Source: an uncultured Ignavibacteriales bacterium (GTDB lineage: Bacteria > Zixibacteria > MSB-5A5 > GN15 > FEB-12). Taken from it: a DNA stretch of 64,000 nt. Positions within the stretch are counted from its first letter, which is position 1. Each line of letters opens with the position of its first letter. The stretch spans positions 410-64,409 of the forward strand of contig CAYNEO010000011.1 in assembly GCA_964396245.1 (NCBI GenBank), in the 5' to 3' direction. Below the pieces are notes generated by a model. The model was given only the letters and a program-made list of their open reading frames with translations, searched no databases and was not told the origin of the DNA. A program made the position numbers and the translations under genes. Shown in pieces: positions 11,790-41,265 of the stretch.

Positions 11790-12536
11790 ATGGATCGAAG
11801 GTATTATACCACAAGTCAGGCCGCTGATCTCCTGGCCGTTTCTTCGGACACAGTGCTGAAGTGGGTCAGGCAGGGTAAGATATCGTCGTATCGGACCCCG
11901 GGCGGCCATGCCCGCATACCCCGGGAGGCCGTCGAGCGACTGCTTCCGGTGCAGATCAACGGACAATCATTGCCCAGCGCCGAGCCTCCGGCCTACCACT
12001 ACTGCTGGGAGTTCTATGCCCCGGAGGGCCGGACGAAACCGGAATGCCACGACTGTATGGTGTTTCGCAGTCGCGCCCGTCGCTGTTACGAGTTGAGAGA
12101 GATCTCCGAGGAGTTCGGCTACCTGACGCCGCATTGTCACTCCGAATGTGAAGATTGTGAATATTACGGCATCGTTCGGGACGAGGGGACACAGGTTCTC
12201 ATTGTCACGCGCAACAGCAAACTTCGCGACAGCCTGACGGAGGAGGCCGAAGGCGGCGACGTTGTTATGCAGTTCGCGGACAGCGAATACCAGTGTGCGT
12301 CGATACTCCATGCCTTTCGGCCGGACTATGTCGTGCTTGATTGCGCGCTTGGCCGGAATCGGACGCAGGAGATGTGCCGTTACCTCTCGACCGACGAGCG
12401 CATTCCGTTCACCAAGATCATCCTGACGTCGCGAAGCGCGGATGTCGAAGATTGTTTTGACGGCCGGATATTCGGATGGATCAAGAAGCCGTTTACGTTC
12501 CAGCAGCTGAGATGTTGTCTCGGTCAGGCGGAATAA
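11790..12536 (+). CDS. excisionase-type (HTH_17/MerR-like) regulator with Cys-rich domain and atypical receiver domain
   Basis: YYTTSQAADLLAVSSDTVLKWVRQGKI...TPGGHARI; CWEF-CxxC-C-CxxxCxxC; VVLD and KKPF receiver remnants. Confidence 0.85.
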   Translation: MDRRYYTTSQAADLLAVSSDTVLKWVRQGKISSYRTPGGHARIPREAVERLLPVQINGQSLPSAEPPAYHYCWEFYAPEGRTKPECHDCMVFRSRARRCYELREISEEFGYLTPHCHSECEDCEYYGIVRDEGTQVLIVTRNSKLRDSLTEEAEGGDVVMQFADSEYQCASILHAFRPDYVVLDCALGRNRTQEMCRYLSTDERIPFTKIILTSRSADVEDCFDGRIFGWIKKPFTFQQLRCCLGQAE

Positions 12537-12626
12537 AGCGGCCGGTACAGATAGACATATCTCGCAGGAGAAAATAACGGCTGACCCGGTGGACATCGCT
12601 GGCAGGCTCGCCCACCGGGCCGGGTA

Positions 12627-12747
12627 GGACTGAAAACGCAACTCTTTACAGAAGCAATTTCCAGACCTGGTATAGCTATAGTATAAATCAGGCGCGTCCT
12701 GTCAAGCGACAATTGTCGCCGGGCCGCGAATCCCGCGTTTTCAGTCC
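12627..12747. repeat. perfect 13-bp inverted repeats enclosing a 95-bp promoter-like segment
   Basis: ggactgaaaacgc (12627-39) / gcgttttcagtcc (12735-47); internal palindrome gcgacaattgtcgc (12706-19). Confidence 0.85.
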
Positions 12748-12804
12748 ACCCTCAGCCACAATCACAGTCCTGACATAATGTTTCTGCTCCACAGGAGACT
12801 GCAC

Positions 12805-13344
12805 ATGTCCGATTCAATCACCATCAACAGCCGCACCTTGCGGGTCTTTGTCGACGACATAACCATGCTGGATGTCGACGCCTTTGTATTTTATGCCCGG
12901 TCGGAACTGACGCTGGGCGCGGGCTTCGGTACGGCCATCAGTGTTAGAGGCGGTCCGTCGATTCAGGAGGAACTGAACGGCAGCGGGCCGCTTGGCGTGA
13001 CCGGGGTTATGACAACCGCAGCCGGCGACCTGAAGGCCGACTTTATCATTCATGCCGTGGGCCCCGCCTTTATGGAAGAGGACACGGAAGGCAAGTTGCG
13101 AACGACAGTTCTCAATGCGTTGAGGGAAGCCGACCGCAAAGGTATCAAACGACTGGCCTTCCCGGCCATGGGCGCCGGCTTCTACTGCGTGCCGCTGGAC
13201 CTTTGCGCCGATGTCATGATCGGCACCATTTCCGACTATCTCGGGTCCGAGGATACCGGTCTCACCGAGGTAATAATCAGTGTGCTGGATAAACGTGAAT
13301 TGAAGCCGTTCCGGGAACGTCTCGGGCAACCGGCGACAGTGTAA
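12805..13344 (+). CDS. macrodomain protein, NAAN motif degenerate
   Basis: DDIT, GAGFGTAI..RGG, IIHAVGP, LAFPAMGAG; AGGAG before ATG 12805. Confidence 0.88.
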   Translation: MSDSITINSRTLRVFVDDITMLDVDAFVFYARSELTLGAGFGTAISVRGGPSIQEELNGSGPLGVTGVMTTAAGDLKADFIIHAVGPAFMEEDTEGKLRTTVLNALREADRKGIKRLAFPAMGAGFYCVPLDLCADVMIGTISDYLGSEDTGLTEVIISVLDKRELKPFRERLGQPATV

Positions 13345-13355
13345 AGGAGAGCGAC

Positions 13356-14039
13356 ATGAGTGAGTTACTGCATTTCTCGGAACACACGTTGCAGGAGGCG
13401 GCCCTGCTGTTCATGGGGGCCGTGTATGTGACGCGCCTCTACTGGATAACCCGGCGCAAAGCGGGGCGCGAACGGCAGGCGCCGACAGGTACCGGAAGTC
13501 TCGATCCAAAGGGCTCCATAGTATATTCGTGGGCTAATGTAGCCATGCCCTGGAGCATGGAGAGCACCCGCAGGAAATGGTTTCTATATGTCCAGTTTGT
13601 CGCGTTCCATCTCGGGGTGGTGGCGGCGATCGGCTTGTCGTTCGTAATTCCATACGGACCGGGAATCCTGGAAACTCCCGGGGTCGTTCCGGTCCTCCAG
13701 ATCGTGATTGGAGCGGCATTCCTGGTGGGTGTCGGACGCATAATCCGGCGTATCGCCAGCAAATACATGCGGGCGATAAGTTCTCCCGATGATTATTTTT
13801 CCCTGGTACTGCTGACTGCCTGGTTCGCATTCGCATTCCTGGCGGTCCCGAACGACACCTCCGGCGGCGAATGGCCGTTGCTGACGTTCTTCTTACTCAC
13901 GGCATTTTTCCTTGTGTACGTTCCGTTCAGCAAAATATCGCATTACCTGTATTACCCGTTCACACGCTACTACCTGGGCAAGACACTGGGACGTCGCGGG
14001 GTTTACCCCGTGAGGAAAGCCCGTCAACATGCCGGTTGA
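13356..14039 (+). CDS. NarI/DsrM/TmcC-family membrane cytochrome b subunit
   Basis: 5 TM; RRI...R.ISSPDDY and VPFSKISH family motifs. Confidence 0.85.
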   Translation: MSELLHFSEHTLQEAALLFMGAVYVTRLYWITRRKAGRERQAPTGTGSLDPKGSIVYSWANVAMPWSMESTRRKWFLYVQFVAFHLGVVAAIGLSFVIPYGPGILETPGVVPVLQIVIGAAFLVGVGRIIRRIASKYMRAISSPDDYFSLVLLTAWFAFAFLAVPNDTSGGEWPLLTFFLLTAFFLVYVPFSKISHYLYYPFTRYYLGKTLGRRGVYPVRKARQHAG

Positions 14040-14083
14040 CACAGGACACCGACATATCGCCAAGGCACTGAAGGAGTGAAGGA

Positions 14084-15868
14084 ATGAATAACAGTTCTCG
14101 ATCATACAAGGCCCAGCGGGTTATCGACCGCATGGACAAGAAACTCAACCGCCAGATGCTGACGTCGCTGCTTGCCTGTGTCCACTGCGGCATGTGCACC
14201 GACGCCTGCCACTACGTGCTCGCCAACCCGGGCGACCCGACTTACGCGCCATCGTACAAGGCGGACCAGATTCGGAAATTCTTCAAACGGCATTACGACT
14301 GGACCGGCCGCGTGCTGCCGTGGTGGGTCAAAGCCAAGAGCCTTTATACCGACGAGGAACTCGAGGAACTGAAAGACACGGTGTTCGGCAAATGCACTAA
14401 CTGTCGCCGGTGTACGCTGAATTGCCCGATGGGGGTGGACTATGCGACTTTCAATCGCATGGCGCGCGGTCTTCTCGTTTCGGTCGGGATTATGCCGGAA
14501 GGCGTCGCGGTCGTGAGCAAAGACCAGTGGGAAATCGGAAACCAGATGGGGGTGTTGAAAGAAGATTATATCGATACGCTGGAGTGGCTCTCGGACGAGC
14601 TCGAAGAGGAATTCGGCGATCCCCGGGCGAGAATACCGATCGATCTGGAAAACGCCAATATCGTGTACTCGATCAATCCGCGGGAAGTGAAGTACGATCC
14701 GAGGACGATATCCGACGCCGCGAGGATATTCTACCTTGCCGGCGAAAGCTGGACCATGCCGAGTGAAGGCTGGGACATGACAAACTTCGGGTTGTTCTCC
14801 GGCGACGATGACCTCGGCGGCGCTGTCGGACGCCGGCTGTTCGAGAAGGTTTCGGAGCTTGGCGGCAAGAAGCTGGTGATTTCAGAATGTGGTCACGGGT
14901 ATCGGTCGACACGTTGTGAGGCGCAGAACTGGGCTGGATGGGACGTCGATTTTGAGATGGAATCATCAGTCATCACCATGTTGCGATACATCAGCGAGGG
15001 ACAAATCACGGTGGACAAGTCGAAGAACCAGTCGCCGGTGACGTTCCATGACTCGTGCAACAATGCCCGGAGCTGCGGATTGACCGAGGAGCCGCGCCAG
15101 TTGCTCAACCTGGTAGTCGAGGATTTCCGGGAGATGTATCCAAACCGGGCGGAGAACTATTGCTGCACCGGCGGCGGCGGCGCCATGTCGATGTCGGAGT
15201 ATACGCCGCGCCGGTTGAAATCGGCGAAGATCAAAGCCGACCAGTTGAAGGCGACCGGCGCCGAATACGTTTGTACGTCGTGCCACAACTGCGTCGACGG
15301 ATTGACGGATCTCATCCGCCACTACAAACTTGGCATGAAAGTGACGCAACTGGTGAACCTGGTTGCCGAAGCTCTCGTCGTGCCGGAGGTCGTGGCGGTA
15401 CCGTCGGTCGAGATTCCCGAGGTCGCCGCGGCCGGTGTCCTCGCCGGACATTCGGTACTGGTTGTCGATGACGAGCCCGATTTCGTGGTGTACGTGTCGA
15501 CGCTTCTGGAAGACAACGGCGCCGCGGTACATCGTGCATTCAGCGGTGAAGAAGCACTGCGTCTTGCCGCGGAGCACCAACCGGATCTGATTACCCTCGA
15601 CATTTCCATGCCGGGGATGTCCGGCCAGGAAGTGTTCGAGCGACTGCGTGAGGATAAGTCATTGCGGGAGGTTCCGATCTGTATCATCACCGGCCAGCCG
15701 GAGCTCCGCAAACTCATATATGACCGACCCCACCGGGCGCCCGAAGGATTCCTCAGTAAACCGATCGATGAAGAACAGCTCATACTCAATGTTCGGAAAG
15801 TGCTGAAAATCCCGCATGAGAAGGAATCGCCCAAAACCGAGTCCTCGGAAGCGAAAAAAGGAGTGTGA
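14084..15868 (+). CDS. DsrK/HmcF/HdrD-like CCG Fe-S oxidoreductase fused to a C-terminal receiver domain
   Basis: CVHCGMCTDAC, CTNCRRCTLNCP, SECGHG, FHDSC...CCTGGGG...CTSCHNC; then LVVDDE...ITLD...IITG...SKP. Confidence 0.92.
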   Translation: MNNSSRSYKAQRVIDRMDKKLNRQMLTSLLACVHCGMCTDACHYVLANPGDPTYAPSYKADQIRKFFKRHYDWTGRVLPWWVKAKSLYTDEELEELKDTVFGKCTNCRRCTLNCPMGVDYATFNRMARGLLVSVGIMPEGVAVVSKDQWEIGNQMGVLKEDYIDTLEWLSDELEEEFGDPRARIPIDLENANIVYSINPREVKYDPRTISDAARIFYLAGESWTMPSEGWDMTNFGLFSGDDDLGGAVGRRLFEKVSELGGKKLVISECGHGYRSTRCEAQNWAGWDVDFEMESSVITMLRYISEGQITVDKSKNQSPVTFHDSCNNARSCGLTEEPRQLLNLVVEDFREMYPNRAENYCCTGGGGAMSMSEYTPRRLKSAKIKADQLKATGAEYVCTSCHNCVDGLTDLIRHYKLGMKVTQLVNLVAEALVVPEVVAVPSVEIPEVAAAGVLAGHSVLVVDDEPDFVVYVSTLLEDNGAAVHRAFSGEEALRLAAEHQPDLITLDISMPGMSGQEVFERLREDKSLREVPICIITGQPELRKLIYDRPHRAPEGFLSKPIDEEQLILNVRKVLKIPHEKESPKTESSEAKKGV

Positions 15869-15872
15869 TCAC

Positions 15873-17369
15873 GTGAACGACCAGTTCCAAAGCTACTTTG
15901 ACGCGATGCCGTGCTATCTGACGGTTCAGGACCGTCAGTTGCGCATGATACACGCAAACCAGCGGTTCAGGAGTGACTTCGGCGAGACCGAGGGGCGGCA
16001 CTGTTACCAGGTATACAAGCGCCGGCCGGAGAAATGCGAAGTCTGTCCGGTGGAACGGTCGTTTCAGGACGGTCATCCCCACCAGAGCCGCGAGGAAGTG
16101 ACGACGCTGGACGGCCGCACGGTGGCGGTGCTGGTCAACACAACGCCCATCTATGACGCCCGGGGGAATATCTCGGGCGTCCTGGAAATGTCAACGGATG
16201 TCACCGACATGAGCAGGCTGGAACAGCAACTCCGCGACAGCCAGGAGCGCTATCGGCTGCTCTTCGAGGAGGTCCCGTGTTTCATTTCCAGCCAGGACCG
16301 AGAGTTGCGCATCGTGGAGGCCAACCGGCTGCACCGCGAGACATTCGGTACCGAGTACGGCTGTAAATGCTACAAAGTGTACAAGCACCGCGACGAGGCC
16401 TGCGTTCCGTGCGTGGTGAAGCAGACTTTTGATGACGGACAGGTGCATATCCACGAGGAACTGGTCACCTCGAATGACGGCCGACCGATCAATGTCATGG
16501 TGACGACCGCACCTATGAAGAATCGAAACGGTGAGATTGATCTCGTGATCGAAATGAGCGCAGATATTACTCGCCTGCGGGAGTTACAGTCCCAGCTCTC
16601 CTCTATCGGGTTGATCATCAGCAGTATCTCACACGATCTCAAGGGATTCCTGAGCGGGCTCGACGGCGGGATATATATGGTCAATTCGGGGCTCAGGCGG
16701 GATGACCGGGGACGTATCGAAACAGGCTGGGAAATGGTAACGCGGAATGTCGGTCACATTCGACGGACGGTTCTGGATATTCTCTATTTCAGCAAGGACC
16801 GCAGGCCGGAGCCGGTCGAGACCGATGTGTCCGACCTGGTGGCGGCAGTGGTTGAACAGATGCAGACGAGGGCAAAAGACCACGGGGTAGTTATTACAAG
16901 CGAAATAGATCAATCGGCCGGCAGTTTTCAGGTCGACCCTCGAGCGATACGCTCGCTTCTCACCAATTTGCTCGACAACGCGCTGGACGCCTGCCGCCTG
17001 AATACTCAGCAGCATGACAATGTGATCATGGTTTCGGTCAGGGGTGATCCTGACAACGTACAGATAGAGATTTCCGACAATGGTTTGGGGATGCCGCAGG
17101 AAGTCCGTGAAAAGGCGTTCACCCTGTTCTTCTCCTCGAAGGGCACGGGCGGTACCGGATTGGGGTTGTTCATCGCCAACAAGATTGCAAAAACCCATGG
17201 CGGACGAATAGACCTCGACTCCGAGATAGGTCGCGGGTCGCGTTTCACGGTCACCCTTCCCCGAATCGCCGCGGTTACCGACGATTTGGAGAGCTCGGAC
17301 AACGGCAACGGAGAGCGTGAGACCGCAATTGACGAAACAGAACGGCGCAAAATTGCAGACGATATATGA
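15873..17369 (+). CDS. cytoplasmic PAS-PAS histidine kinase
   Basis: two tandem PAS; ISHDLK H-box, NLLDNA, DNGLG, FFSSKG, GTGLGL; no TM; AGGAG before GTG 15873. Confidence 0.92.
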   Translation: MNDQFQSYFDAMPCYLTVQDRQLRMIHANQRFRSDFGETEGRHCYQVYKRRPEKCEVCPVERSFQDGHPHQSREEVTTLDGRTVAVLVNTTPIYDARGNISGVLEMSTDVTDMSRLEQQLRDSQERYRLLFEEVPCFISSQDRELRIVEANRLHRETFGTEYGCKCYKVYKHRDEACVPCVVKQTFDDGQVHIHEELVTSNDGRPINVMVTTAPMKNRNGEIDLVIEMSADITRLRELQSQLSSIGLIISSISHDLKGFLSGLDGGIYMVNSGLRRDDRGRIETGWEMVTRNVGHIRRTVLDILYFSKDRRPEPVETDVSDLVAAVVEQMQTRAKDHGVVITSEIDQSAGSFQVDPRAIRSLLTNLLDNALDACRLNTQQHDNVIMVSVRGDPDNVQIEISDNGLGMPQEVREKAFTLFFSSKGTGGTGLGLFIANKIAKTHGGRIDLDSEIGRGSRFTVTLPRIAAVTDDLESSDNGNGERETAIDETERRKIADDI

Positions 17370-17411
17370 AACCGGCCGCATGCAAAGGCATCAGGGCAAG
17401 AAAGGCGGATT

Positions 17412-17804
17412 GTGATGAAGAAAAAGGTGCTGATTGTTGATGATGAAGCCGATATGAGAACGTACTTCGAGTCGCTTCTCTCCGAAAACGGCTTCGAGAC
17501 CGCAACCGCGTCCGACGGCGACATCGGCTTTGAAACGGCCCGGACATTTCAGCCGGATGTGATCACGCTGGATATTATCATGGAGCGGGAGACCGGGGTG
17601 AAGTTCTACCGCAAAGTGCTGAAAGACGACTGTCTGAAAAACACACCGGTCATTATCCTGAGCGGTGTGGGCAGCTACAAGGCGCTCTTCGGACGTGATC
17701 ACGCCACCATGACGAAACCGTTTGCGTTCCTGGAGAAACCGGTAGACACGGATGAATTGATTGACAAGATCAACGAGGCCATAGCGTTGAAAGAAAAAGT
17801 CTGA
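17412..17804 (+). CDS. single-domain response regulator
   Basis: LIVDDE, ITLD, ILSG, EKP. Confidence 0.93.
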   Translation: MMKKKVLIVDDEADMRTYFESLLSENGFETATASDGDIGFETARTFQPDVITLDIIMERETGVKFYRKVLKDDCLKNTPVIILSGVGSYKALFGRDHATMTKPFAFLEKPVDTDELIDKINEAIALKEKV

Positions 17805-17882: not shown

Positions 17883-20800
17883 TTACTTCAGCAGTATCAT
17901 CTTCCTCGTCACTGTGTAGTCACCGGCCTCGATCCGATAGAGATATACGCCGCTGGCATTGTCCCCGGCATTCCATTGCAGGGTGTGTTCGCCAGCTTCG
18001 TAATAACTGTCGGCAAGTCGCGCTACCTCCTGTCCCAGGATATTGTAGACACTGACCACAACACGGGACGCGGTTGGCAGACTGAAGTCGATATTGGTTG
18101 TCGGGTTGAACGGATTCGGATAGTTCTGCGATACCGAGAACTCCTCGGGAAGAAGCATCTCGGGCCTGCCTTCCTGCAACACCAGGCCGCCGGGAACGGC
18201 GCTGGCTCCTGACAGACCGCGGAATTCAATCTGGTCGATATAGACGTCGTCGGCATCGCCGCTGGCGTCACACACAAACCGAATCTTCGCGTTAGTCGGG
18301 AAGTTGTATTCGCTTCGGTCGATTGTCACAACGGCATGATACCACGTACTGTTGTTGAAATCGATTCCACGGGCATAGGCGGCTACTGTCCGCCAGGCCG
18401 AGCCGTCGTAGTACTGGATCCAGAAATCCTCGCCATACTCCATGCTGATGGCCACGAAATAGAAATCGACCTCGAGCACGTTGAAGCCGGTTACGTTGTA
18501 ACCATAGGTATGGTAGAATGACGAGGCAACGCCGCTGTTGTCCTGAATGTCAGCTGCGTTGTAACCCTCCCATGCGTAGTAGTAGCCGGTATACAGGAAC
18601 ATGTCCGCGCCGCCGTCGGTATAGTTGCCCATGCCGCTTTCGAAGTCATCATAGGTTATGACTGCCGAGGAGCTGGGTTCGGACACCGTGATGTATCCCG
18701 TCTTGGTCTCGGTGTCGCTTCCGAAGACGTTTGTCGCGGTCAGCGACACCGTGTATGTGCCGGGGTTGGCGTACGAGTGTGAAGGATTCTGTGCCGTGGA
18801 ACTCCCGCCGTCGCCGAAATTCCAACTCCAGCTGGTCGGATTGCCGCCCGACAGGTCGGTGAAGCTGACGCTGAGCGGGGCCGGCCCGGAAGTCGGGTTG
18901 GCCGAGAAATCGGCCACCGGCGGCGTCTCGTTGGATACGACACTGATATCATCGAAGGCCATACCATCGGTCGAGATACTATAGTTGTCGTACTGCTGGA
19001 ATTTGACGACAAAGGTGCTCGTCAGGCTTAAGCCGTTTGCCGATGCCAGTTGATCGATATCGAGGTCTATCTCTCGGTAGGTGGTGCTCCCTCCGGTCAG
19101 ACTGTACACTTTGACAAACGACGATCCACCGTCATCGGAGAAGAAAACCCCATCCTGGGTATGATCTTCGTCGCCGAATTCCTTCCACCAGAACGACAGC
19201 GCGACGTCGCTCTTGCCGGACAGATTGAGCCGCAGCCAGGCTTCGTTCTGGGCATACAGGCCGCCGTTGTAGTTGTCATCCATGGTCATATGGTAGGAAC
19301 CTGAATGCGGTCCGTTGGCGGTGGTGATGAGGATGCGCCCTTCCGAGTTGCTGCTCTGCGTGAACCAGTACTGGTCAAAGGCTCCTGACTCGAAACCGGT
19401 CGAGTATGGCAGAGTGGCATAGGTTGCCGAGGGTGTGCTCACCGTGATGTAGTTCGACTTTATCTCGACATCACTGCCGCACGAGTTGGTTGCAGTCAGG
19501 GTGACGGAAAACGTTCCCTGTGATGTGTACGTGTGGGACGGGTTCTGCGCGGTCGAGGCACCGCCGTCGCCGAAGCTCCAACTCCACGATGTCGCGCCGG
19601 TTGACTGGTCAGTGAAATTCACCGTCAGGGGTGTATTGCCGGAGGTTGGACTGCCGGTGAAGTTCGCCACCGGGTAAGTGCAGCCTCCGGTCGTGATGTA
19701 ATTCGTCCGGGTGTATGTATCCGAACCGCAGGAACTGGTCGCGGTCAACCGAACCGTGAACGTTCCGACGCTCGTGTACGTGTGGCTCGGATTGGTCGCT
19801 GTCGACGTTCCGCCGTCACCGAAGTCCCACGAGTACGAAGTCGCACCGCTGGAACTGTTGGTGAAATATACCGTCAGCGGAGCATCTCCGGAAGTCGGTG
19901 AACCGCTGAATCCGGCGGTCGGACCGGCATTCACGGTAATGTAGTTGGTCTTGGTCTCCGAGTCACTGCCGGCGGCGTTGGTGACGGTCAGCGAGACTGT
20001 GTACGACCCGGACGAGCTGAACGTATGGCTCGGGTTCTGCGCAGTCGATGTTCCACCATCGCCGAAGTTCCAGCTCCAGCTTGTCGGGCTGCCTGACGAG
20101 AGGTCGGTGAAGCTCACCGACAGCGGCGAGCAGCCGGAAGTAGGCGAACCGCTGAAATTGGCAACCGGCGCCGCAGGGCCGGTATTCACGGCGTTGTAGG
20201 CGTTGACACGTCCGGCGCCCATCCTGCCGATGTATTGTGAGGACAGGTAGGCGTCGATATTGTCAGCGCTGGAATAGAGCTGGTTTTTCACCTGTGAGGC
20301 GGTCCAGCCCGGGTTGTGCGACCAGATCAATGCCCCGACGCCGGCTGTCAGCGGCGTCGCCATGGAAGTGCCGCTCAGCGACGCCCAGTAGTTGGTGTTC
20401 GGGTCGGTGTGATCGTGGTACGTGCTGTAGATGTTGTTGCCGGGCGCACAGATGTCGACCCAGGTCCCGTAGGTCGTGAAGCTGGCGGCGTTGTCGTTTT
20501 CATCGGTGGCGGCCACCGACACACAATCGCCACGGCCATTGAGGTAGTCGGCCGTGGTTCCGCCGTCGTTGCCGGCCGCGACAAACACGATACCGCCGCT
20601 GGCAATGAAGTAGTCGACCGCTGCGCCGAGACCGCCGCTGTTGGACGAACCCCAGCTACAGGACGCGATCTTTGCCCCCTTGGCGGCGGCATAGTAGAAA
20701 GCCGAGGCAGCGCAATCCATTTGCACGACGCCGTACTCCTGGCCGCCGTAATTGTAAGAATAGCCCATCCGCAGCGGCATCAGCTTGATACCGTTGCCGG

Positions 20801-21710
20801 TGACAGCCTGCGAGCCGTTGCCCCAGCCGCCGGCGATCCCGCACATGCCGTAACCATCGTTGGTCAGCATGGCGATGATACCGGCCGTGTGGGTGCCGTG
20901 ACCGTTGAAGTCACGCGGGTCGTTGTCCTCGGTGTTGCAGTCTTCGCCGGTCCAGCAGCTCGTGACGCCGTCGATGAAATCCCAACCGATCCAGTCATCG
21001 ACATAGCCGTTGCCGTCGTCGTCATATCCGGATGTGCCGTTGAGCTCGGCGGTATTGATCCACATATTGCCGCGCGAGGCGCCGGGATTGGACGGAGAGG
21101 CATTGGCGCCGCCAAGATCGGGATGATAGTACCGGGTACCGGAGTCGAGCAGGGCCACGATTACGGACGTGCTGCCGGTCTCGATGTTCCAGGCTTCCGG
21201 AGCATCGATGTCGTGGTCGCCGGCCTGATTGAGGTACCACTGATAGCTGTAATAGCCGTCGTTCGGTGTGGCGTAGAGGGCGTGGATGCCGTTCTTTTCC
21301 ACGGATTCGACGGCCGGGTCAGCCTGGTAGGCGGCCATGACTTCGTCGAGATCCGCGTTCGGGTCAAACCGGACAACGAAATGGTGCGATAAATCAAAGA
21401 ATCTGCCATTGATCATTTCGGGTTTGGCTCCCTTGAACATCTGATTCATCTCGGTGACCTGGTATTGCCGGGCAATAGCATCGAGGGACGGAATTTCCAG
21501 GGACATCAGCCCGCTGCGCAGCCGCGCCTTTTCGACCCTCTCCGGGGTCACACCGCTGGTTGCTTTGAAGTTCACAACGAGTTCACCCGGAGCCCAGCCG
21601 AGGAATGAAGGTCCATAGGGTCGGTCGACGACCTTCACATCCGGATTACCGGCCTGCACAAGCACCGGGATGAGGAGAACCATTGTGAAGAAGATTACCA
21701 GCTTCTTCAT
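17883..21710 (-). CDS. S8 subtilisin-like protease with 4 PKD domains, two jelly-roll-like domains and a T9SS-type C-terminal sorting domain
   Basis: LLDSG / HGTHTAG / SGTSMA triad; four WxFGDG...NPSHT repeats; QNYPNPFNP tail; AGGAGG RBS. Confidence 0.95.
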   Translation of the reverse strand: MKKLVIFFTMVLLIPVLVQAGNPDVKVVDRPYGPSFLGWAPGELVVNFKATSGVTPERVEKARLRSGLMSLEIPSLDAIARQYQVTEMNQMFKGAKPEMINGRFFDLSHHFVVRFDPNADLDEVMAAYQADPAVESVEKNGIHALYATPNDGYYSYQWYLNQAGDHDIDAPEAWNIETGSTSVIVALLDSGTRYYHPDLGGANASPSNPGASRGNMWINTAELNGTSGYDDDGNGYVDDWIGWDFIDGVTSCWTGEDCNTEDNDPRDFNGHGTHTAGIIAMLTNDGYGMCGIAGGWGNGSQAVTGNGIKLMPLRMGYSYNYGGQEYGVVQMDCAASAFYYAAAKGAKIASCSWGSSNSGGLGAAVDYFIASGGIVFVAAGNDGGTTADYLNGRGDCVSVAATDENDNAASFTTYGTWVDICAPGNNIYSTYHDHTDPNTNYWASLSGTSMATPLTAGVGALIWSHNPGWTASQVKNQLYSSADNIDAYLSSQYIGRMGAGRVNAYNAVNTGPAAPVANFSGSPTSGCSPLSVSFTDLSSGSPTSWSWNFGDGGTSTAQNPSHTFSSSGSYTVSLTVTNAAGSDSETKTNYITVNAGPTAGFSGSPTSGDAPLTVYFTNSSSGATSYSWDFGDGGTSTATNPSHTYTSVGTFTVRLTATSSCGSDTYTRTNYITTGGCTYPVANFTGSPTSGNTPLTVNFTDQSTGATSWSWSFGDGGASTAQNPSHTYTSQGTFSVTLTATNSCGSDVEIKSNYITVSTPSATYATLPYSTGFESGAFDQYWFTQSSNSEGRILITTANGPHSGSYHMTMDDNYNGGLYAQNEAWLRLNLSGKSDVALSFWWKEFGDEDHTQDGVFFSDDGGSSFVKVYSLTGGSTTYREIDLDIDQLASANGLSLTSTFVVKFQQYDNYSISTDGMAFDDISVVSNETPPVADFSANPTSGPAPLSVSFTDLSGGNPTSWSWNFGDGGSSTAQNPSHSYANPGTYTVSLTATNVFGSDTETKTGYITVSEPSSSAVITYDDFESGMGNYTDGGADMFLYTGYYYAWEGYNAADIQDNSGVASSFYHTYGYNVTGFNVLEVDFYFVAISMEYGEDFWIQYYDGSAWRTVAAYARGIDFNNSTWYHAVVTIDRSEYNFPTNAKIRFVCDASGDADDVYIDQIEFRGLSGASAVPGGLVLQEGRPEMLLPEEFSVSQNYPNPFNPTTNIDFSLPTASRVVVSVYNILGQEVARLADSYYEAGEHTLQWNAGDNASGVYLYRIEAGDYTVTRKMILLK

Positions 21711-22020: not shown

Positions 22021-24315
22021 TCAACCGCTCGTAACATCCTGGTCGACCCAGATTTTCGCCAGCAGCCGCTCAAACCGCGGATCCGAACGCAGGTGGTCTG
22101 CATACGGCGCGTGCAGAAGCGACGGCATCCAGGAATCACGCTGCTCGCAGGCATCTTCAAACCGATCAAAGGCTTCATCCAGCCGGCCCAACCCGGAAAG
22201 TACAAGCGCCGGGTACATGGGCGGGACATGCCGATGTTCAGCCGCAGCGCTCAGGCGGTCGAGAACCTGACTTGCCTCCTCAGTTCGGCCCGCGAGACCG
22301 CACGCCATGCCCAGATGGCCCAGAGCGAGAGGGCTCTCGGCTGAGACAGCCACCAGATGTTGGAACACGTCGATGGATTCGTCCCATTTCCCTATCGCCG
22401 ACAGGGTAAGCCCCTTGAACAGGTGCGCCAGAAAGAATTCCGGCTCCAGTTCCAGCGTGGCGTGAATTTGCGCCAACGCTTCATCGTATCTGCGGCCCCA
22501 GTAATAGGCCAATCCCAGCACCGCGTTCAGGATCAAAGAAACAGGATCCAGTTCCAGACCGCGCCTGACCTGGGCGAGGCCTTCATCGTAGCGGCCCAGG
22601 ACCCCCAATAACAACGCAAAGAACTCTCTCAGGTCGGAGTAATTGGGGTTCAGGTTGACCGCGAGGCGGAATTCCCTTTCGGCAGCGACGAAATCCCAGC
22701 TGTGGAAGGTATGGAGCCAGCCAAGCGCAGCGTGCGCTTCGGCGAGAGAGTTGTCAATCGCGAGGGCAGTCTCCACCGCCTTCTTTGATACGGGATAACA
22801 CTCCATGGGAGAAAGATAGAGATGACCGAGGATGTTGTAGGCATCCGCTACGCCAACGTACGCCAGGGCGTATTCGGGGTCGCGCGCGATGGCGCGCTGG
22901 AAAAACTCTATCGATTTCTGGAGGCCGCCCTGGAAACGTCTATTCCAGAAGTAGCGGCCCTGAAGGTACAGTTTGTACGCCTCCTGATCCTCGGTATACC
23001 GTTTTGTCAGCCGCGTTTTCTCCTGTGTCAGCAGGCGGACTTTCAAACGATCCACTATCGTCAGGGCGATTTCATCCTGGATCGAAAAGATGTCCTGCAT
23101 ATTGCGGTCATATTTCTCCGACCAGAGATGGTAACCATCGGCCACGTTAATAAGCTGGGTGGTGATACGTATCCGGCCGTTTGCCTTTCTGACGCTGCCT
23201 TCAAGTACGGTGGCCACATTCAGTTTGCGGCCGATCTCCCTGATATCCTGTTCTTTGCCACGGAAGGAGAACGCCGATGTTCGCGCTACCACACGCAGGC
23301 CATCGACCTGGGCCAACGCGTTGATGATCTCCTCGGCCATGCCGTCGCAAAAGTAGTCCTGGGCGCGGTCATCACTCAGGTTAGTGAATGGCAGGACGGC
23401 GATTGACGGCTTGGATGGCGAGTCGGCTTCCGGCGCGGTTGAACGGGTCTCCAGTTCGACTCTTACCTCCCGAAGATCGGACAGCATCTCGGCGGCTGTC
23501 TGGTACCTCTCGGCGGGTTCCTTTTCGAGCGCCTTATCGATGACTGCCTGAAGTTTCAATGGAAGGTCAGTGATGTATTCGTCCAACCGCGGCACGGCTT
23601 CCTGGACAATAGCCAGCAGGGTGGCGGCTTCATAGTCGCGCAGGAAGGGCGATTTACCGGTGAGCATTTCGAAAAGCACGATGCCAAGCGAAAAGAGATC
23701 GGAACGGGAATCAGCCGACTCTCCCCTGATCTGTTCCGGCGACATGTATCCGATTGTTCCGGAAATCGAGCCATCATGGCTGACCGGTTCGTATCCGCGG
23801 ATTGTGGCCAATCCGAAGTCGAGTAATTTGCAGTTCCCCTTACGGTCCACCTTGATATTCGATGGTTTGATGTCGCGGTGTACGACCCCTATGGAGTGAG
23901 CTTCGTGCAATCCGGCCGCAAGCTGTGTGGCGCATTCCAGGGCGCACTGCAGGGAGACCTTCCGCGCCTTGATCATCTGGCGCAGGGTTTCGCCCTCGAC
24001 ATATTCCATAGCAAGGAAAAGCCGCCCCTGTTCTTCGCCGATTTCGTAAACCGTGACTATGTTGGGATGGCTCAACCGGGCAGCCGCTCGCGCCTCGCGT
24101 GTAAAGCGGGCCCGGACCTCCGGGTCGGAAGCATACGCCTCCGGCAGGAACTTCAGCACGACGCTCCGATGAAGACTGATGTCCTCGGCCAGATAAACAT
24201 CACCCATACCACCGGTTTCGATATGCTCCCGGATACGATAATGCCCAATTACAGATTGCGCATCGCGTTGAAATCTCGATTGGGTGATGTCATCAGCGTC
24301 GTCGTTTTTCGACAA
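22021..24315 (-). CDS. Ser/Thr protein kinase with TolB-like domain and TPR repeats
   Basis: GGMGDVY, VLK, HRDIKPSN, DFG, YMSPEQ; SIAVLPF...YFCDG; TPRs; TTG start at 24315 chosen, uncertain. Confidence 0.92.
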   Translation of the reverse strand: MSKNDDADDITQSRFQRDAQSVIGHYRIREHIETGGMGDVYLAEDISLHRSVVLKFLPEAYASDPEVRARFTREARAAARLSHPNIVTVYEIGEEQGRLFLAMEYVEGETLRQMIKARKVSLQCALECATQLAAGLHEAHSIGVVHRDIKPSNIKVDRKGNCKLLDFGLATIRGYEPVSHDGSISGTIGYMSPEQIRGESADSRSDLFSLGIVLFEMLTGKSPFLRDYEAATLLAIVQEAVPRLDEYITDLPLKLQAVIDKALEKEPAERYQTAAEMLSDLREVRVELETRSTAPEADSPSKPSIAVLPFTNLSDDRAQDYFCDGMAEEIINALAQVDGLRVVARTSAFSFRGKEQDIREIGRKLNVATVLEGSVRKANGRIRITTQLINVADGYHLWSEKYDRNMQDIFSIQDEIALTIVDRLKVRLLTQEKTRLTKRYTEDQEAYKLYLQGRYFWNRRFQGGLQKSIEFFQRAIARDPEYALAYVGVADAYNILGHLYLSPMECYPVSKKAVETALAIDNSLAEAHAALGWLHTFHSWDFVAAEREFRLAVNLNPNYSDLREFFALLLGVLGRYDEGLAQVRRGLELDPVSLILNAVLGLAYYWGRRYDEALAQIHATLELEPEFFLAHLFKGLTLSAIGKWDESIDVFQHLVAVSAESPLALGHLGMACGLAGRTEEASQVLDRLSAAAEHRHVPPMYPALVLSGLGRLDEAFDRFEDACEQRDSWMPSLLHAPYADHLRSDPRFERLLAKIWVDQDVTSG

Positions 24316-24603
24316 TACAAACACCCCCACGTCAGAAATCCAGAGAACCGCACATGTTTGAATGGCATTATATAATACACTTCGCCCACTTGAAACGCAA
24401 CAACTAACGACTGAGTCATGCGCGCCGGCGACCGGTCGATTTCTCCACGGGGAACAAAGCGGGCCTGGGATCAATTCTAGTGAAAGGCGAGCGGCCCGGG
24501 ACCTCAAGTCCGATTCGGGTTGCGAACCGGTTCATACATAATCTTCTTGCCGTTTCTCCAATTTGAAAAAACGAATCCACTCGCAGACTCTGGAGAGTGA
24601 TTT

Positions 24604-39458: not shown

Positions 39459-39556
39459 TTCCGGCAGGGCAGGAGTGCAGCCAATGGAAAAGGAAAAGTC
39501 AGATAAGATCACAACCATTCGAGTAAGACACCTGTTTTGGAGTGAGTGAACGAGCA

Positions 39557-40489
39557 ATGTCAGACTTATATATCTACTTGCCTATTGCCAATGTCAGCGT
39601 GCACATTTTCGTGTTGCTCGGTCTCGGCCTGCTGGTCGGTTTCCTCTCCGGCCTGTTCGGAGTCGGCGGCGGGTTTCTGCTGACACCGCTATTAATGATG
39701 ATTGGCATTCCCCCGACGGTCGCGGCGGCATCCGACGCCAACCAGATTGTCGCGGCTTCAACCTCGGGCACTTTTGCGCACTGGCGCCTGGGAAACGTTG
39801 ACTTCAAGATGGGCCTGATACTGGTCGCCGGAGGCATCGTCGGGGGCACCCTCGGAGTTCAGCTCATCAAAGTACTCCGGGCGGCCGGTAATGCCGATTT
39901 TGTCATCAAGATCACCTACGTGGTCATGCTGGGCATTATCGGCTCATACATGTTTCAGGAGAGCCTGAAGAACCTGAGACCGCGCCCGCTACCGGGTATC
40001 GGGGTCATACCGCAGAAGAAATCCTGGTTCGGCGGTTGCTGTGAGTCGCTGCCGCTGAAGGTCAATTTCGAAAAATCCGGGATCACGCTGTCGATCTTCA
40101 TGCCGATCATACTCGGCACGCTGGTGGGTGTTCTTTCGGCGCTCATGGGCGTCGGCGGCGGCTTCATCATGGTGCCGGTCATGGTATACATGCTGCGAAT
40201 GCCGATGCACGTGGTTGTCGGGACGAGCCTGTTCCAAGTATTGTTTACCTGCATCAATGTCACGTTCATGCAATCCTACTACAACCACACGGTTGACCTG
40301 ATTCTCGCCGTGTTCCTGCTGGTCGGGTCGACAACCGGCGCCCAGCTTGGCGCCAGGGTCAGCAGCCGGCTGAAAGCCGATCAGCTGAAGATCATCCTGG
40401 CATCGATTGTTCTGCTGGTCATGATCAACATGGCGCTCGGTCTGATCCTCCACCCCGGCACGTTGCTCTCATACAAGGGAGGACACTGA
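39557..40489 (+). CDS. TauE/SafE (TSUP) family transporter
   Basis: GLFGVGGGFLLTP, GVGGGFIMVP, VVGTSL. Confidence 0.92.
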   Translation: MSDLYIYLPIANVSVHIFVLLGLGLLVGFLSGLFGVGGGFLLTPLLMMIGIPPTVAAASDANQIVAASTSGTFAHWRLGNVDFKMGLILVAGGIVGGTLGVQLIKVLRAAGNADFVIKITYVVMLGIIGSYMFQESLKNLRPRPLPGIGVIPQKKSWFGGCCESLPLKVNFEKSGITLSIFMPIILGTLVGVLSALMGVGGGFIMVPVMVYMLRMPMHVVVGTSLFQVLFTCINVTFMQSYYNHTVDLILAVFLLVGSTTGAQLGARVSSRLKADQLKIILASIVLLVMINMALGLILHPGTLLSYKGGH

Positions 40490-41265
40490 TGACCAGGATT
40501 TTGACATTGACGGCGCTGCTCTGTTTTCTGGGCGCCATGGTTGTCGCTGAACCTTCGCCGGAGGACAGCCTCGTGAAACTGTCACTTGACCCGGCGCAGA
40601 TCCACGTGAGCACATTCTACAAGGGCGCCGATATTCACGTTTCCGCAAAGGTCGGTGAGTGTGACGGTGCGGTGCTGCTTCTCACGGCAGGCGAAGAAGA
40701 AGAGACGCTGAATAGAAAAGGCCGGGTGGCCGGTATCTGGTTGAACGTGGCACAGGTCACGGTCAGTCATGTTCCCCGCATATATATCCTGGGAACGTCG
40801 GATAGGCTGGAGAATATTTGTTCGCCGGAAGTACAGAAGGAGTTCGGTCTCGGCGAGGAATCTCTTCGAGAACAGGTCCAATTCACCTGCGAAAAGCCGT
40901 TGACCGGTTCGGAGTTCGATGAATTTTTAAAGCTCAAGGTCGACAACGGTACTTATAACATGAATGTGAAAGTCGACCTCGTGCCTGCCGGTCCGGGTCA
41001 AAAGGAGTTGTCGGCGATGCTGCCTGTTCCGCCGACCGTTCCCCCGGGCACATACACGGTGCAGTTATATTGCTTCAAGGACGGCAAACCGGTAGAACGC
41101 GGCTCGGCACAGCTTTCGATAGTCCGGGTCGGGTTGGCGCGAGTGATGGCCTCACTTGCTGACAATGATCCGGCTGTTTACGGTGTAGTGGCCATTGTGG
41201 TGGCCATGATTGTGGGTATTGGAATGGGCCTTATATTCAGTTCACGGCCGGGGTCCGGGCACTAG
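40489..41265 (+). CDS. TIGR02186-like periplasmic protein with C-terminal TM anchor
   Basis: signal peptide, RKGRVAGIWLN, P..VPPGTYTV, C-terminal YG..A TM; TGATG overlap with TSUP. Confidence 0.8.
   Translation: MTRILTLTALLCFLGAMVVAEPSPEDSLVKLSLDPAQIHVSTFYKGADIHVSAKVGECDGAVLLLTAGEEEETLNRKGRVAGIWLNVAQVTVSHVPRIYILGTSDRLENICSPEVQKEFGLGEESLREQVQFTCEKPLTGSEFDEFLKLKVDNGTYNMNVKVDLVPAGPGQKELSAMLPVPPTVPPGTYTVQLYCFKDGKPVERGSAQLSIVRVGLARVMASLADNDPAVYGVVAIVVAMIVGIGMGLIFSSRPGSGH

What the first reader, a model, noticed from the sequence alone, without database searches (positions are those of the whole stretch)
13356..14039. NarI-like subunit keeps only the proximal heme ligands
Seen: TM His only at H85 and H196; the +10 and -18 positions are S95 and F178. 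Known: in NarI, H56/H205 bind proximal heme bP and H66/H187 bind distal heme bD. Inference: a mono-heme variant with no trans-membrane wire, matching the absence of a periplasmic partner; probably non-electrogenic or only an anchor.
Basis: partly seen in the sequence, partly recalled or inferred. Interest (0 to 1): 0.62.

Follow-up and report, generated by a model that had tools for sequence, protein, structure and literature searches.

The report
Single-haem NarI-like membrane cytochrome subunit
This gene encodes a small membrane protein, related to the haem-carrying anchors of nitrate reductase and of the Hmc/Dsr complexes of sulfate reducers, that keeps only the inner (cytoplasm-side) of the two haem sites. 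The same holds for its whole large, uncharacterised family, which always pairs with a DsrK-like iron-sulfur enzyme and often lies in sulfite-reductase gene clusters.

Summary
The 227-aa ORF has membrane His only at H85 and H196. Alignment with E. coli NarI puts them on H56/H205 (proximal haem); S95 and F178 fall on H66/H187 (distal haem).

This is a family trait, not a quirk of this window. H85 and H196 are invariant in 84/84 close and 52/52 diverse homologues, and no member has both distal His. Genuine HmcE, NarI and DsrM keep the TM5 distal His. H6 and H10 vary independently, so they are not obligate ligands.

The protein is a distant sister of HmcE/TmcC (hhalign 98.6 %) with a NarI fold. 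Its partner has every DsrK/HmcF/TmcB cluster motif plus a fused C-terminal receiver domain.

Both genes sit in a conserved six-gene cassette: HTH-REC, Macro, NarI-like, CCG::REC, PAS kinase, REC. The cassette has no periplasmic partner, and 26 of 80 related loci have dsr genes within 10 kb.

A single-haem NarI-type domain is already solved (mycobacterial EtfD, 9OJN), so this is a new variant of a known kind. "Mono-haem, no transmembrane wire" is well supported. "Only an anchor" is disfavoured. "Non-electrogenic" remains open.

The parts
13356..14039 (+). NarI-fold, HmcE/TmcC-related membrane subunit (227 aa, 5 TM, N-out/C-in) with a single predicted haem b site
13608..13610 (+). Codon of H85 (TM2), equivalent to NarI H56, proximal haem ligand; invariant in the family
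13941..13943 (+). Codon of H196 (motif PFSKISH after TM5), equivalent to NarI H205, proximal haem ligand; invariant in the family
13638..13640 (+). Codon of S95, at the position of NarI H66 (distal ligand); Ser in 84/84 close homologues
13887..13889 (+). Codon of F178, at the position of NarI H187 (the TM5 distal ligand kept by HmcE and DsrM); Tyr 70 / Phe 14 in close homologues
14084..15868 (+). Cytoplasmic partner (594 aa): DsrK/HmcF/TmcB-like iron-sulfur protein. It has 2 x CxxCxxCxxxC, SECGH with C269, and the CCG motif C325 / CC360-361 / C400xxC403, fused to a C-terminal receiver domain
15449..15808 (+). Receiver (REC) domain of the partner, residues about 456-575, with D462, D463, D506, T536 and K559 intact
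12778..13344 (+). Macro-domain (ADP-ribose-binding/hydrolase type) protein, 11 nt upstream; immediately precedes the membrane subunit in almost all related loci
11790..12536 (+). HTH_17/excisionase-type DNA-binding domain + Cys-rich linker + receiver domain; probable transcriptional output of the cassette
15873..17369 (+). Soluble PAS-PAS histidine kinase (H-box SHDLK). Each PAS domain has a conserved-looking Cys cluster ending in CxxC (C63, C74, C77; C183, C185, C196, C199 in ORF-15816 numbering). The ORF opens at 15816, but GTG 15873 with an AAGGAG site is the likelier start
17412..17804 (+). Stand-alone receiver protein; best NCBIfam match is the DVU0259 (tmc-neighbourhood) receiver family, 111 bits, below the cut-off of 160

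Best explanation
The ORF encodes the membrane subunit of a two-subunit, cytoplasm-facing, quinone-linked iron-sulfur oxidoreductase. The complex is of the HmcEF / TmcBC / DsrMK / HdrED type, and the mycobacterial EtfD is a fused version of the same design. The subunit is a cytochrome b with one haem. H85 (TM2) and H196 (end of TM5) ligate a haem b on the cytoplasmic half of the membrane, and K193, R131/R132 and R204 are placed to hold its propionates. The distal site of NarI, HmcE and DsrM has been lost at sequence level in the whole family (S95; Y/F178). Electrons therefore do not cross the membrane. They pass between menaquinone/menaquinol bound inside the membrane next to the haem, then haem b, two cubane [4Fe-4S] clusters, and the non-cubane cluster plus Cys269 of the DsrK-like partner. 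The quinone probably sits in the pocket left by the distal haem, lined by invariant S95, Y/F178 and F185, as seen for menaquinone in EtfD. The likely substrate is a DsrC/TusA-type sulfur-carrier protein. The partner's fused receiver domain ties the complex to the adjacent PAS kinase, a receiver-only protein and an HTH-receiver regulator. Shown here: homology, topology, the ligand pattern and its conservation, the partner's cluster motifs, synteny, and linkage to dsr genes. Inferred: haem occupancy, the quinone site, the substrate, the direction of electron flow, and the role of phosphorylation.
For: The His mapping onto NarI comes from three independent alignments. H85 and H196 are invariant, and no member has both distal His. 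The AF2 model (pLDDT 78.7) finds NarI chains first (prob 1.00) and then M. smegmatis EtfD 9OJN (TMq 0.54). hhalign against genuine HmcE gives 98.6 %, E = 6e-16, over 198 columns. Genuine HmcE, E. coli NarI and a DsrM from a locus carrying the same cassette all keep the TM5 -18 His. HmcE lies in hmcABCDEF with a multihaem cytochrome c. EtfD has one b haem (His78/His241), 7 A from a [4Fe-4S] cluster and 4-5 A from menaquinone (PMC13083937). Its lack of haem bD is read as uncoupled electron transfer to menaquinone (bioRxiv 10.64898/2026.08.18.745454). The partner scores HmcF 329, TmcB 311 and DsrK 241 bits. All its cluster Cys and the (S/G/T)ECGH Cys align with DsrK, matching the motif described in PMC10861901. 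Its only non-REC PDB sequence hit among the 60 best listed is EtfD (E = 1e-9). The membrane and CCG genes are adjacent in every related locus with enough flank. 26 of 80 loci carry dsrAB/L/N/MK within 10 kb, and dsrC or a double DsrC-like gene lies directly upstream in many. Other clades of the same single-haem family sit in DsrE-TusA-X-CCG, in DsrC-X, or in X-CCG::DsrC fusions.
Against: No biochemical data exist for any member. Pfam's NarI model PF02665 does not detect the protein even at E <= 10, and the NCBIfam HmcE/TmcC scores are far below their cut-offs. In Syntrophus EMO a distal twin haem hangs from a single His, so unusual ligation cannot be ruled out from sequence. The window itself has no dsr, dsrC or tusA gene in its 64 kb, so the substrate assignment rests on other genomes.
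Confidence: 0.7

Rival explanations
1. One haem but still energy-conserving. Quinol is oxidised in the pocket vacated by the distal haem and its protons leave to the periplasm through conserved polar residues, while the electrons go to the cytoplasmic partner. The complex would then be an electrogenic half-loop despite having no transmembrane haem wire.
For: Q13, S95, P99, Y100, P165, N166 and E172 are 84/84 conserved and lie at the periplasmic ends of the helices, with an acidic N-terminal face (E9, E14). Ser and Tyr at the former distal-ligand positions are typical hydrogen-bond donors to quinone carbonyls (general knowledge). DsrMK-type complexes are thought to oxidise quinol near the periplasmic face (bioRxiv 10.64898/2026.08.25.746951).
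Against: The solved one-haem relative EtfD is interpreted as uncoupled. The P-side residues are conserved in the close clade but not across the wider family.
Confidence: 0.25
2. The membrane/CCG::REC pair is mainly a sensor rather than a catabolic enzyme. It would read the redox state of the quinone pool or of DsrC-type carriers and pass this on through its receiver domain to the PAS kinase and the HTH-REC regulator, which control dsr or related genes.
For: Four of the six cassette genes are signalling proteins. The CCG subunit carries an intact C-terminal REC (D462/D463/D506/T536/K559). The cassette order is conserved across phyla and the cassette is embedded in dsr clusters. The kinase PAS domains and the HTH-REC linker are Cys-rich. 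The receiver-only protein resembles DVU0259 from the D. vulgaris tmc neighbourhood.
Against: The CCG part is 76-88 % identical across phyla and keeps every catalytic feature of DsrK, which fits an enzyme. In some Zixibacteriota loci the pair follows dsrABNLC with no canonical dsrMK within 10 kb, as if it were the working reductase. Related clades have the same pair without any REC or kinase.
Confidence: 0.3
3. A second, distal haem is still bound through non-canonical ligands (H6 or H10 on the periplasmic end of TM1, Y100, Y178), so a transmembrane wire persists.
For: H6 and H10 are each conserved in 77/84 close homologues and lie near the depth of the lost distal site. Syntrophus EMO binds a distal twin haem through one His only.
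Against: H6 and H10 vary independently in otherwise near-identical N-termini, and three homologues lack both. Neither is conserved in the wider family, whereas H85 and H196 are invariant. The TM5 -18 His kept by every two-haem relative examined is absent in all members. No periplasmic acceptor is encoded.
Confidence: 0.07
4. The protein binds no haem and serves only as a membrane anchor for the iron-sulfur subunit.
For: There is no direct evidence of haem binding. Pfam's NarI model does not match.
Against: The two His that ligate the proximal haem in NarI and EtfD are the most conserved residues of the family, together with P190/K193 of the PFSKISH motif. A pure anchor has no reason to keep them.
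Confidence: 0.05

Closest known systems
HmcE / HmcF of the HmcABCDEF complex (Desulfovibrio and relatives)
   Same: Same size (226 vs 227 aa), collinear over 198 columns (hhalign 98.6 %), and the same FHxG and PF(S/T)K(I/L)SH motifs. It is followed by a Fer4 + CCG protein with the xECGH cysteine.
   Different: HmcE keeps four His (TM2 H and H+14; TM5 H-18 and H) and is detected by PF02665. It works with the periplasmic multihaem HmcA, HmcB and the NrfD-type HmcC. The window protein scores only 47 bits against a cut-off of 275, has two His, has no periplasmic partners, and its partner carries a REC domain.
TmcC / TmcB of the TmcABCD complex, with the DVU0258-DVU0260 regulators nearby
   Same: The NCBIfam TmcC model matches at E = 1.4e-11 and TmcB at 311 bits. 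The cassette's receiver-only protein and the fused REC both match the DVU0259 family best.
   Different: All scores are below the cut-offs. The cassette has no TmcA cytochrome c3 and no TmcD. The His pattern of genuine TmcC could not be checked here.
Mycobacterium smegmatis EtfD / EMO (PDB 9OJN)
   Same: A NarI-like membrane domain with a single b haem on a TM2/TM5 His pair, next to [4Fe-4S] clusters and a menaquinone site. The window protein's model matches it with the best TMq (0.54) and the partner matches its soluble part (E = 1e-9).
   Different: EtfD is one fused polypeptide that takes electrons from ETF, and its CCG clusters are non-catalytic wires. It still has the TM5 distal His (H223), although no haem was seen there. 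The window family has lost that His, is split into two genes, keeps the DsrK-type catalytic Cys, and has no ETF genes nearby.
E. coli NarI (NarGHI, PDB 1Q16)
   Same: Five TM helices, N-out/C-in. The proximal ligands H56/H205 align with H85/H196, and the RRL...R loop and PFSRLIH motif are conserved.
   Different: NarI has the distal haem (H66/H187), a periplasm-side quinol site and a longer TM4-TM5 loop. Sequence similarity is marginal (profile E = 0.016).
DsrM / DsrK (DsrMK, DsrMKJOP)
   Same: The same two-subunit logic. The partner shares every cluster ligand and the conserved non-ligating Cys with DsrK. The cassette lies beside dsrAB, dsrC, dsrL, dsrN and dsrMK in many genomes.
   Different: DsrM (303 aa in L003) is hit by PF02665, keeps the TM5 distal His and binds two haems b (PMC10861901). 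The window protein scores 12.5 bits on the DsrM model (cut-off 300).

Membership tests
NarI family (Pfam PF02665, Nitrate_red_gam) | Match to the Pfam model | tested here: not met
   No Pfam hit at E <= 0.1 or at E <= 10. Genuine HmcE and DsrM are hit.
NarI family (Pfam PF02665, Nitrate_red_gam) | Five-TM fold, N-terminus outside, C-terminus inside | tested here: met
   Positive-inside counts 0/9/0/4/0/8. In Foldseek, NarI chains are ranks 1-8 with prob 1.00 and TM 0.45-0.52.
NarI family (Pfam PF02665, Nitrate_red_gam) | Proximal haem ligands (NarI H56 / H205) | tested here: met
   H85 and H196 align to them and are invariant.
NarI family (Pfam PF02665, Nitrate_red_gam) | Distal haem ligands (NarI H66 / H187) | tested here: not met
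   S95 and F178 here; Ser 84/84 and Tyr/Phe 84/84 in close homologues.
NarI family (Pfam PF02665, Nitrate_red_gam) | Haem b actually bound, and how many | not testable with these tools
   Needs a pyridine haemochrome assay, redox titration or a structure.
HmcE (NCBIfam NF045716) | Score at or above the curated cut-off (275 bits) | tested here: not met
   47.2 bits, E = 2.1e-12. Homology itself is clear (hhalign 98.6 %).
HmcE (NCBIfam NF045716) | Operon with HmcA (multihaem cytochrome c), HmcB, HmcC (NrfD) and HmcD | tested here: not met
   None in the cassette or the window. They are present around genuine HmcE.
TmcC (NCBIfam NF045723) | Score at or above the curated cut-off (240 bits) | tested here: not met
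   44.3 bits.
TmcC (NCBIfam NF045723) | His ligand pattern of genuine TmcC | not tested
DsrM (NCBIfam NF038037) | Score at or above the curated cut-off (300 bits) | tested here: not met
   12.5 bits.
DsrK / HmcF / TmcB-type CCG subunit (the partner, 14084-15868) | Two ferredoxin-type CxxCxxCxxxC motifs, one complete CCG motif and the conserved Cys in (T/G/S)ECGH | tested here: met
   C32-42, C104-114, SECGH C269, C325, CC360/361 and C400xxC403 all align with DsrK. The motif is described in PMC10861901.
DsrK / HmcF / TmcB-type CCG subunit (the partner, 14084-15868) | Curated equivalog cut-offs (HmcF 750, TmcB 735, DsrK 400 bits) | tested here: not met
   328.8, 310.8 and 240.7 bits: a related but separate lineage.
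EtfD / EMO (ETF:menaquinone oxidoreductase) | Membrane and FeS/CCG domains fused in one polypeptide; ETF as electron donor | tested here: not met
   Two separate genes with a 44-nt gap. No ETF or acyl-CoA dehydrogenase genes were seen among the called genes of the contexts examined.
Response-regulator receiver domain (C-terminus of the partner) | PF00072 above its cut-off, with the acidic pocket, phospho-acceptor Asp, Thr and Lys | tested here: met
   78.6 bits against 30.2; D462, D463, D506, T536, K559.

The most novel reading that the evidence does not exclude
A respiratory-type membrane complex (one-haem cytochrome b plus a DsrK-like catalytic iron-sulfur subunit) is wired directly into a two-component phosphorelay through a receiver domain fused to the catalytic subunit. 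Either the quinone/DsrC redox state is turned into a phosphorylation signal that controls dissimilatory sulfur genes, or phosphorylation gates a non-electrogenic quinol:DsrC bypass. In the second case the cassette would act as a regulated valve of the Dsr pathway in Zixibacteriota, Gemmatimonadota and other uncultivated sediment lineages. The always-adjacent macro-domain protein would have a role that is not yet understood.
Probability: 0.3. Interest if true: 0.75.

Novelty: new variant of a known kind. Interest (0 to 1): 0.55.

Why it matters
Whether a NarI/HdrE/DsrM-type subunit carries one haem or two decides whether electrons can cross the membrane. That in turn decides how, or whether, the reaction can be coupled to the proton-motive force.

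This family is the clearest case found here of the distal site being lost at sequence level. EtfD still has one distal His. The family is large: relatives occur in 435 of 185,579 GTDB species genomes, and more than 4000 clusters at 90 % identity are detected. It is missed by Pfam, is very strongly conserved across phyla, and is physically tied to dsrAB, dsrC and dsrMK in lineages whose sulfur metabolism is known only from metagenomes.

If it is a quinone-linked DsrC reductase or oxidase, or a sensor of that couple, then energy budgets and regulation models of sulfite/sulfate reduction in these groups would need an extra component.

Tried and rejected
- Pfam on the ORF at E <= 10 gave nothing.
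- phmmer of the ORF against PDB sequences gave only chance hits. A family profile reached NarI only at E = 0.016 and did not reach EtfD.
- Literature searches for the haem ligands of TmcC/HmcE found nothing usable. The Pereira 2011 review and the Rossi 1993 hmc paper are not held.
- I used an HmcE sequence recalled from memory only as a search seed. It returned real database proteins at 99 % identity and named HmcE entries, and only those retrieved sequences were analysed.
- Genuine TmcC and HdrE were not obtained.
- Model coordinates are not returned by the structure tool, so haem-site geometry and the depth of H6/H10 could only be estimated from helix positions.
- No RNA runs hold the locus, so expression was not checked.
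- The idea that the His pattern is a peculiarity or degeneration of this one gene was rejected, because it is family-wide.
- The idea that the window encodes dsr genes was rejected: tblastn and Pfam over the 64 kb found none.
- No paper in the searched library describes the cassette.

Full report
**The observation.**
ORF 13356..14039 (+) encodes 227 aa behind an AGGAG site. His residues are at 6, 10, 85, 196 and 225; residue 95 is Ser and residue 178 is Phe. Hydropathy and the positive-inside rule give five TM helices with the N-terminus outside and the C-terminus inside. K+R counts per extramembrane segment are 0 / 9 / 0 / 4 / 0 / 8. H85 lies in TM2. H196 lies in the motif PFSKISH just after TM5. 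Both are on the cytoplasmic half.

**Mapping onto NarI.**
I fetched E. coli K-12 narI (L001:6850-7527). Its sequence shows H56, H66, H187 and H205. MAFFT alignments place residue 85 on H56, 95 on H66, 178 on H187 and 196 on H205. A profile of 52 family members aligns to NarI chains in the PDB over TM2-TM5 (E = 0.016). It pairs 'FHlG' with 'LFHIG' and 'PFsKIsH' with 'PFSRLIH'.

The assignment of H56/H205 to haem bP and H66/H187 to haem bD is established knowledge of NarGHI. It agrees with the description of NarI-type domains in bioRxiv 10.64898/2026.08.18.745454, where the proximal ligands are the TM2 His and the last TM5 His, and the distal ligand is the TM5 His 18 residues earlier.

**The pattern is a family trait.**
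- A protein search found 4087 clusters at E <= 0.001. The best 120 are 69-78 % identical and come from Zixibacteriota, Gemmatimonadota and similar MAGs.
- A full HMMER scan of 1.84 billion representatives found 466 relatives.
- A scan of GTDB species genomes found relatives in 435 genomes of many phyla.
- In 84 close homologues, H85, H196 and S95 are 84/84 and position 178 is Tyr 70 / Phe 14.
- In 52 diverse representatives down to 23 % identity, the only invariant columns are P65, H85, D146, P190, K193, H196 and G208.
- None of the 150 best representatives has His at both distal positions.
They vary independently in otherwise near-identical N-termini, are both missing in three homologues, and are not conserved in the wider family.

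**What the protein is.**
- Pfam does not detect it, even at E <= 10.
- NCBIfam gives weak hits to HmcE (47 bits, cut-off 275) and TmcC (44 bits, cut-off 240).
- An AlphaFold2 model (pLDDT 78.7) finds NarI chains as Foldseek ranks 1-8 (prob 1.00, TM about 0.5). It also finds M. smegmatis EtfD (9OJN), which has the best query TM-score, 0.54.

To compare with genuine HmcE, I used a sequence recalled from memory purely as a search seed. It retrieved real proteins at 99 % identity and entries named HmcE by NCBI. These retrieved sequences carry PF02665 and four His: TM2 FH...(+14)H and TM5 H(-18)...PFTKLSH. Profile-profile comparison of the window family with them gives 98.6 % probability and E = 6e-16 over 198 columns.

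In a joint alignment the proximal pair is shared by all sequences. The TM5 -18 His is present in HmcE, in NarI and in a DsrM from a contig that also carries the cassette, but it is absent from the window family. Genuine HmcE sits in hmcABCDEF next to a 544-aa multihaem cytochrome c and an NrfD protein. The family is therefore a sister lineage of HmcE/TmcC that lost the distal site and has no periplasmic module.

**The partner.**
The next gene (14084..15868, 594 aa) matches HmcF (329 bits), TmcB (311) and DsrK (241), all below the equivalog cut-offs. It has:
- two CxxCxxCxxxC motifs;
- SECGH with C269;
- the CCG motif C325 / CC360-361 / C400xxC403.

All of these align with a DsrK from L003 and with partners from other clades. 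This matches the 'one CCG motif plus T/GECGH cysteine' signature described for DsrK, HmcF and TmcB (PMC10861901). Apart from receiver domains, its only PDB sequence match among the 60 best listed is EtfD (E = 1e-9).

Its C-terminus is an intact receiver domain: PF00072 at 78.6 bits, with D462, D463, D506, T536 and K559.

**The cassette and its neighbourhood.**
The six genes are, in order:
1. HTH_17 + Cys-rich linker + REC
2. Macro
3. NarI-like membrane subunit
4. CCG::REC
5. PAS-PAS histidine kinase
6. REC-only protein

This order is collinear in a complete Zixibacteriota chromosome and in a Gemmatimonadota-like contig. In essentially all of the 80 genome loci with enough flank, the Macro gene and the four genes after it keep this order; the HTH-REC gene is upstream in most. 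None of the six proteins is a c-type cytochrome. The only CxxCH string is inside the cytoplasmic CCG motif. The receiver-only protein matches the DVU0259 family best, which is the tmc neighbourhood of D. vulgaris (111 bits, cut-off 160).

- 26 of the 80 loci have dsrA/B/L/N or dsrMK within 10 kb. This is a lower bound, because many contigs are short.
- In several Zixibacteriota loci the order is dsrA-B-N-L-C-macro-narI-like-CCG::REC-kinase, with no canonical dsrMK within reach.
- In Gemmatimonadota loci a gene with two DsrC-like domains precedes the Macro gene. Each domain keeps the first Cys but lacks the terminal Cys. dsrT-dsrMK follows the cassette.
- More distant clades of the same one-haem family occur as DsrE-TusA-X-CCG, as DsrC-X, and as X followed by a CCG::DsrC fusion.
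- The window itself has no dsr, dsrC or tusA gene.
- The sequence occurs in sediment and salt-marsh metagenomes.

**Mechanism.**
The best reading is a one-haem cytochrome b that links membrane menaquinone to the iron-sulfur chain of a DsrK-like catalytic subunit on the cytoplasmic side. No electrons cross the membrane.

The solved precedent is EtfD. It has one b haem on His78/His241, 7 A from a [4Fe-4S] cluster and 4-5 A from a menaquinone head stabilised by Phe85 and Phe230. Counted from the proximal ligands, those two residues correspond to I92 and the invariant F185 here. S95 and Y/F178 would lie just beyond them. I therefore propose, as an inference, that the quinone occupies the space of the lost distal haem.

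The substrate is most likely a DsrC/TusA-type carrier. This is also an inference, drawn from gene neighbourhoods.

**Energetics.**
However, the haem count alone does not settle this question. If the quinol protons leave to the outside, the reaction is electrogenic whatever the length of the electron path. The close clade has a set of fully conserved polar residues at the periplasmic helix ends: Q13, S95, Y100, N166 and E172. I keep this as a rival at about 0.25.

'Only an anchor' is unlikely, because the haem ligands and the propionate-binding basic residues are the most conserved positions of the family.

**Role of the receiver domain.**
It is unknown whether the fused receiver makes the complex a regulated enzyme or a sensor. 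The high conservation and the complete catalytic motifs favour an enzyme. The four signalling genes, and the Cys-rich PAS and linker regions, favour sensing.

**Novelty.**
Single-haem NarI-type domains are now documented structurally (EtfD), so the principle is known. New here are four things:
- a large, separate, Pfam-invisible lineage related to HmcE/TmcC in which both distal ligands are lost outright;
- its pairing with a catalytic DsrK-like subunit fused to a receiver domain;
- its conserved six-gene signalling cassette, which includes a macro-domain protein;
- its linkage to dsr loci.

I found no description of any of these in the searchable literature. I rate it a new variant of a known kind, with interest 0.55.

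Noticed in passing
window 11790-17804: A six-gene cassette: HTH_17 + Cys-rich linker + REC, Macro, NarI-like, DsrK-like::REC, PAS-PAS kinase, REC. The order from Macro to REC is kept in essentially all 80 related genome loci with enough flank, from Zixibacteriota, Gemmatimonadota, Acidobacteriota, Ignavibacteria, LCP-89, Phycisphaerae and Myxococcota. The CCG part is 76-88 % identical across phyla.
   Followed up: yes
L003, L005, L015, L022, L025, L037-L039, L041, L043, L044, L046, L051, L053, L056, L057, L061, L063, L065, L071, L072, L074, L078, L082: The cassette lies within 10 kb of dsrAB, dsrL, dsrN or dsrMK in 26 of 80 loci. In some Zixibacteriota loci (L015, L022, L039, L065) the order is dsrA-B-N-L-C-macro-narI-like-CCG::REC, with no canonical dsrMK in reach.
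   Followed up: partly
L005:3211-3860, L038:8792-9440, L046:8625-9270 (+): In Gemmatimonadota loci the gene directly upstream of the Macro gene encodes two tandem DsrC-like domains. Each keeps the first conserved Cys (GAC) but lacks the C-terminal Cys. A third DsrC-like gene lies further upstream on the other strand.
   Followed up: partly
L089:609-3311, L085:5263-6950, L090:4542-5507, L086:1849-4168: More distant clades of the same one-haem family sit in DsrE-TusA-X-CCG and DsrC-X arrangements. In one clade the CCG subunit is fused to a DsrC domain instead of a receiver domain.
   Followed up: partly
window 12778-13344: A macro-domain (ADP-ribose-binding/deacetylase type) protein sits immediately upstream of the membrane subunit in almost all related loci (79 of 80 genome-scan loci), often with overlapping stop and start codons. 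A role for ADP-ribose chemistry next to a DsrK-like complex is unexplained.
   Followed up: no
window 15816-17369 and 11790-12536: Each PAS domain of the kinase has a Cys cluster ending in CxxC (C63, C74, C77; C183, C185, C196, C199). The HTH-REC protein has a linker with seven Cys. Both could be metal or FeS redox-sensing sites. The kinase ORF opens at 15816 and overlaps the upstream gene by 53 nt, but GTG 15873 behind AAGGAG is the likelier start.
   Followed up: partly
window 13356-14039, residues Q13, S95, P99, Y100, P165, N166, E172, F185: These periplasm-side or mid-membrane residues are 84/84 conserved in the close clade, which suggests a functional site (a quinone pocket or a proton path) where the distal haem used to be.
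   Followed up: partly
proteins P0286, P0293, P0331: Some HmcE-type proteins (381-385 aa) are fused to cytochrome c3/c7 domains. A four-His cytochrome b is thus physically joined to a periplasmic multihaem module.
   Followed up: no
window 39542-41265: A TauE/SafE-type sulfite-exporter family protein is followed by an Alph_Pro_TM membrane protein. Apart from the cassette, this is the only other sulfur-related gene seen in the window.
   Followed up: no
window 17883-21710 (-), 22021-24507 (-), 47100-49373 (-): A 1275-aa subtilase with four PKD domains and a T9SS C-terminal sorting domain, consistent with an FCB-group (Zixibacteriota-like) organism. There are also two Ser/Thr protein kinases with TPR repeats.
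   Followed up: no
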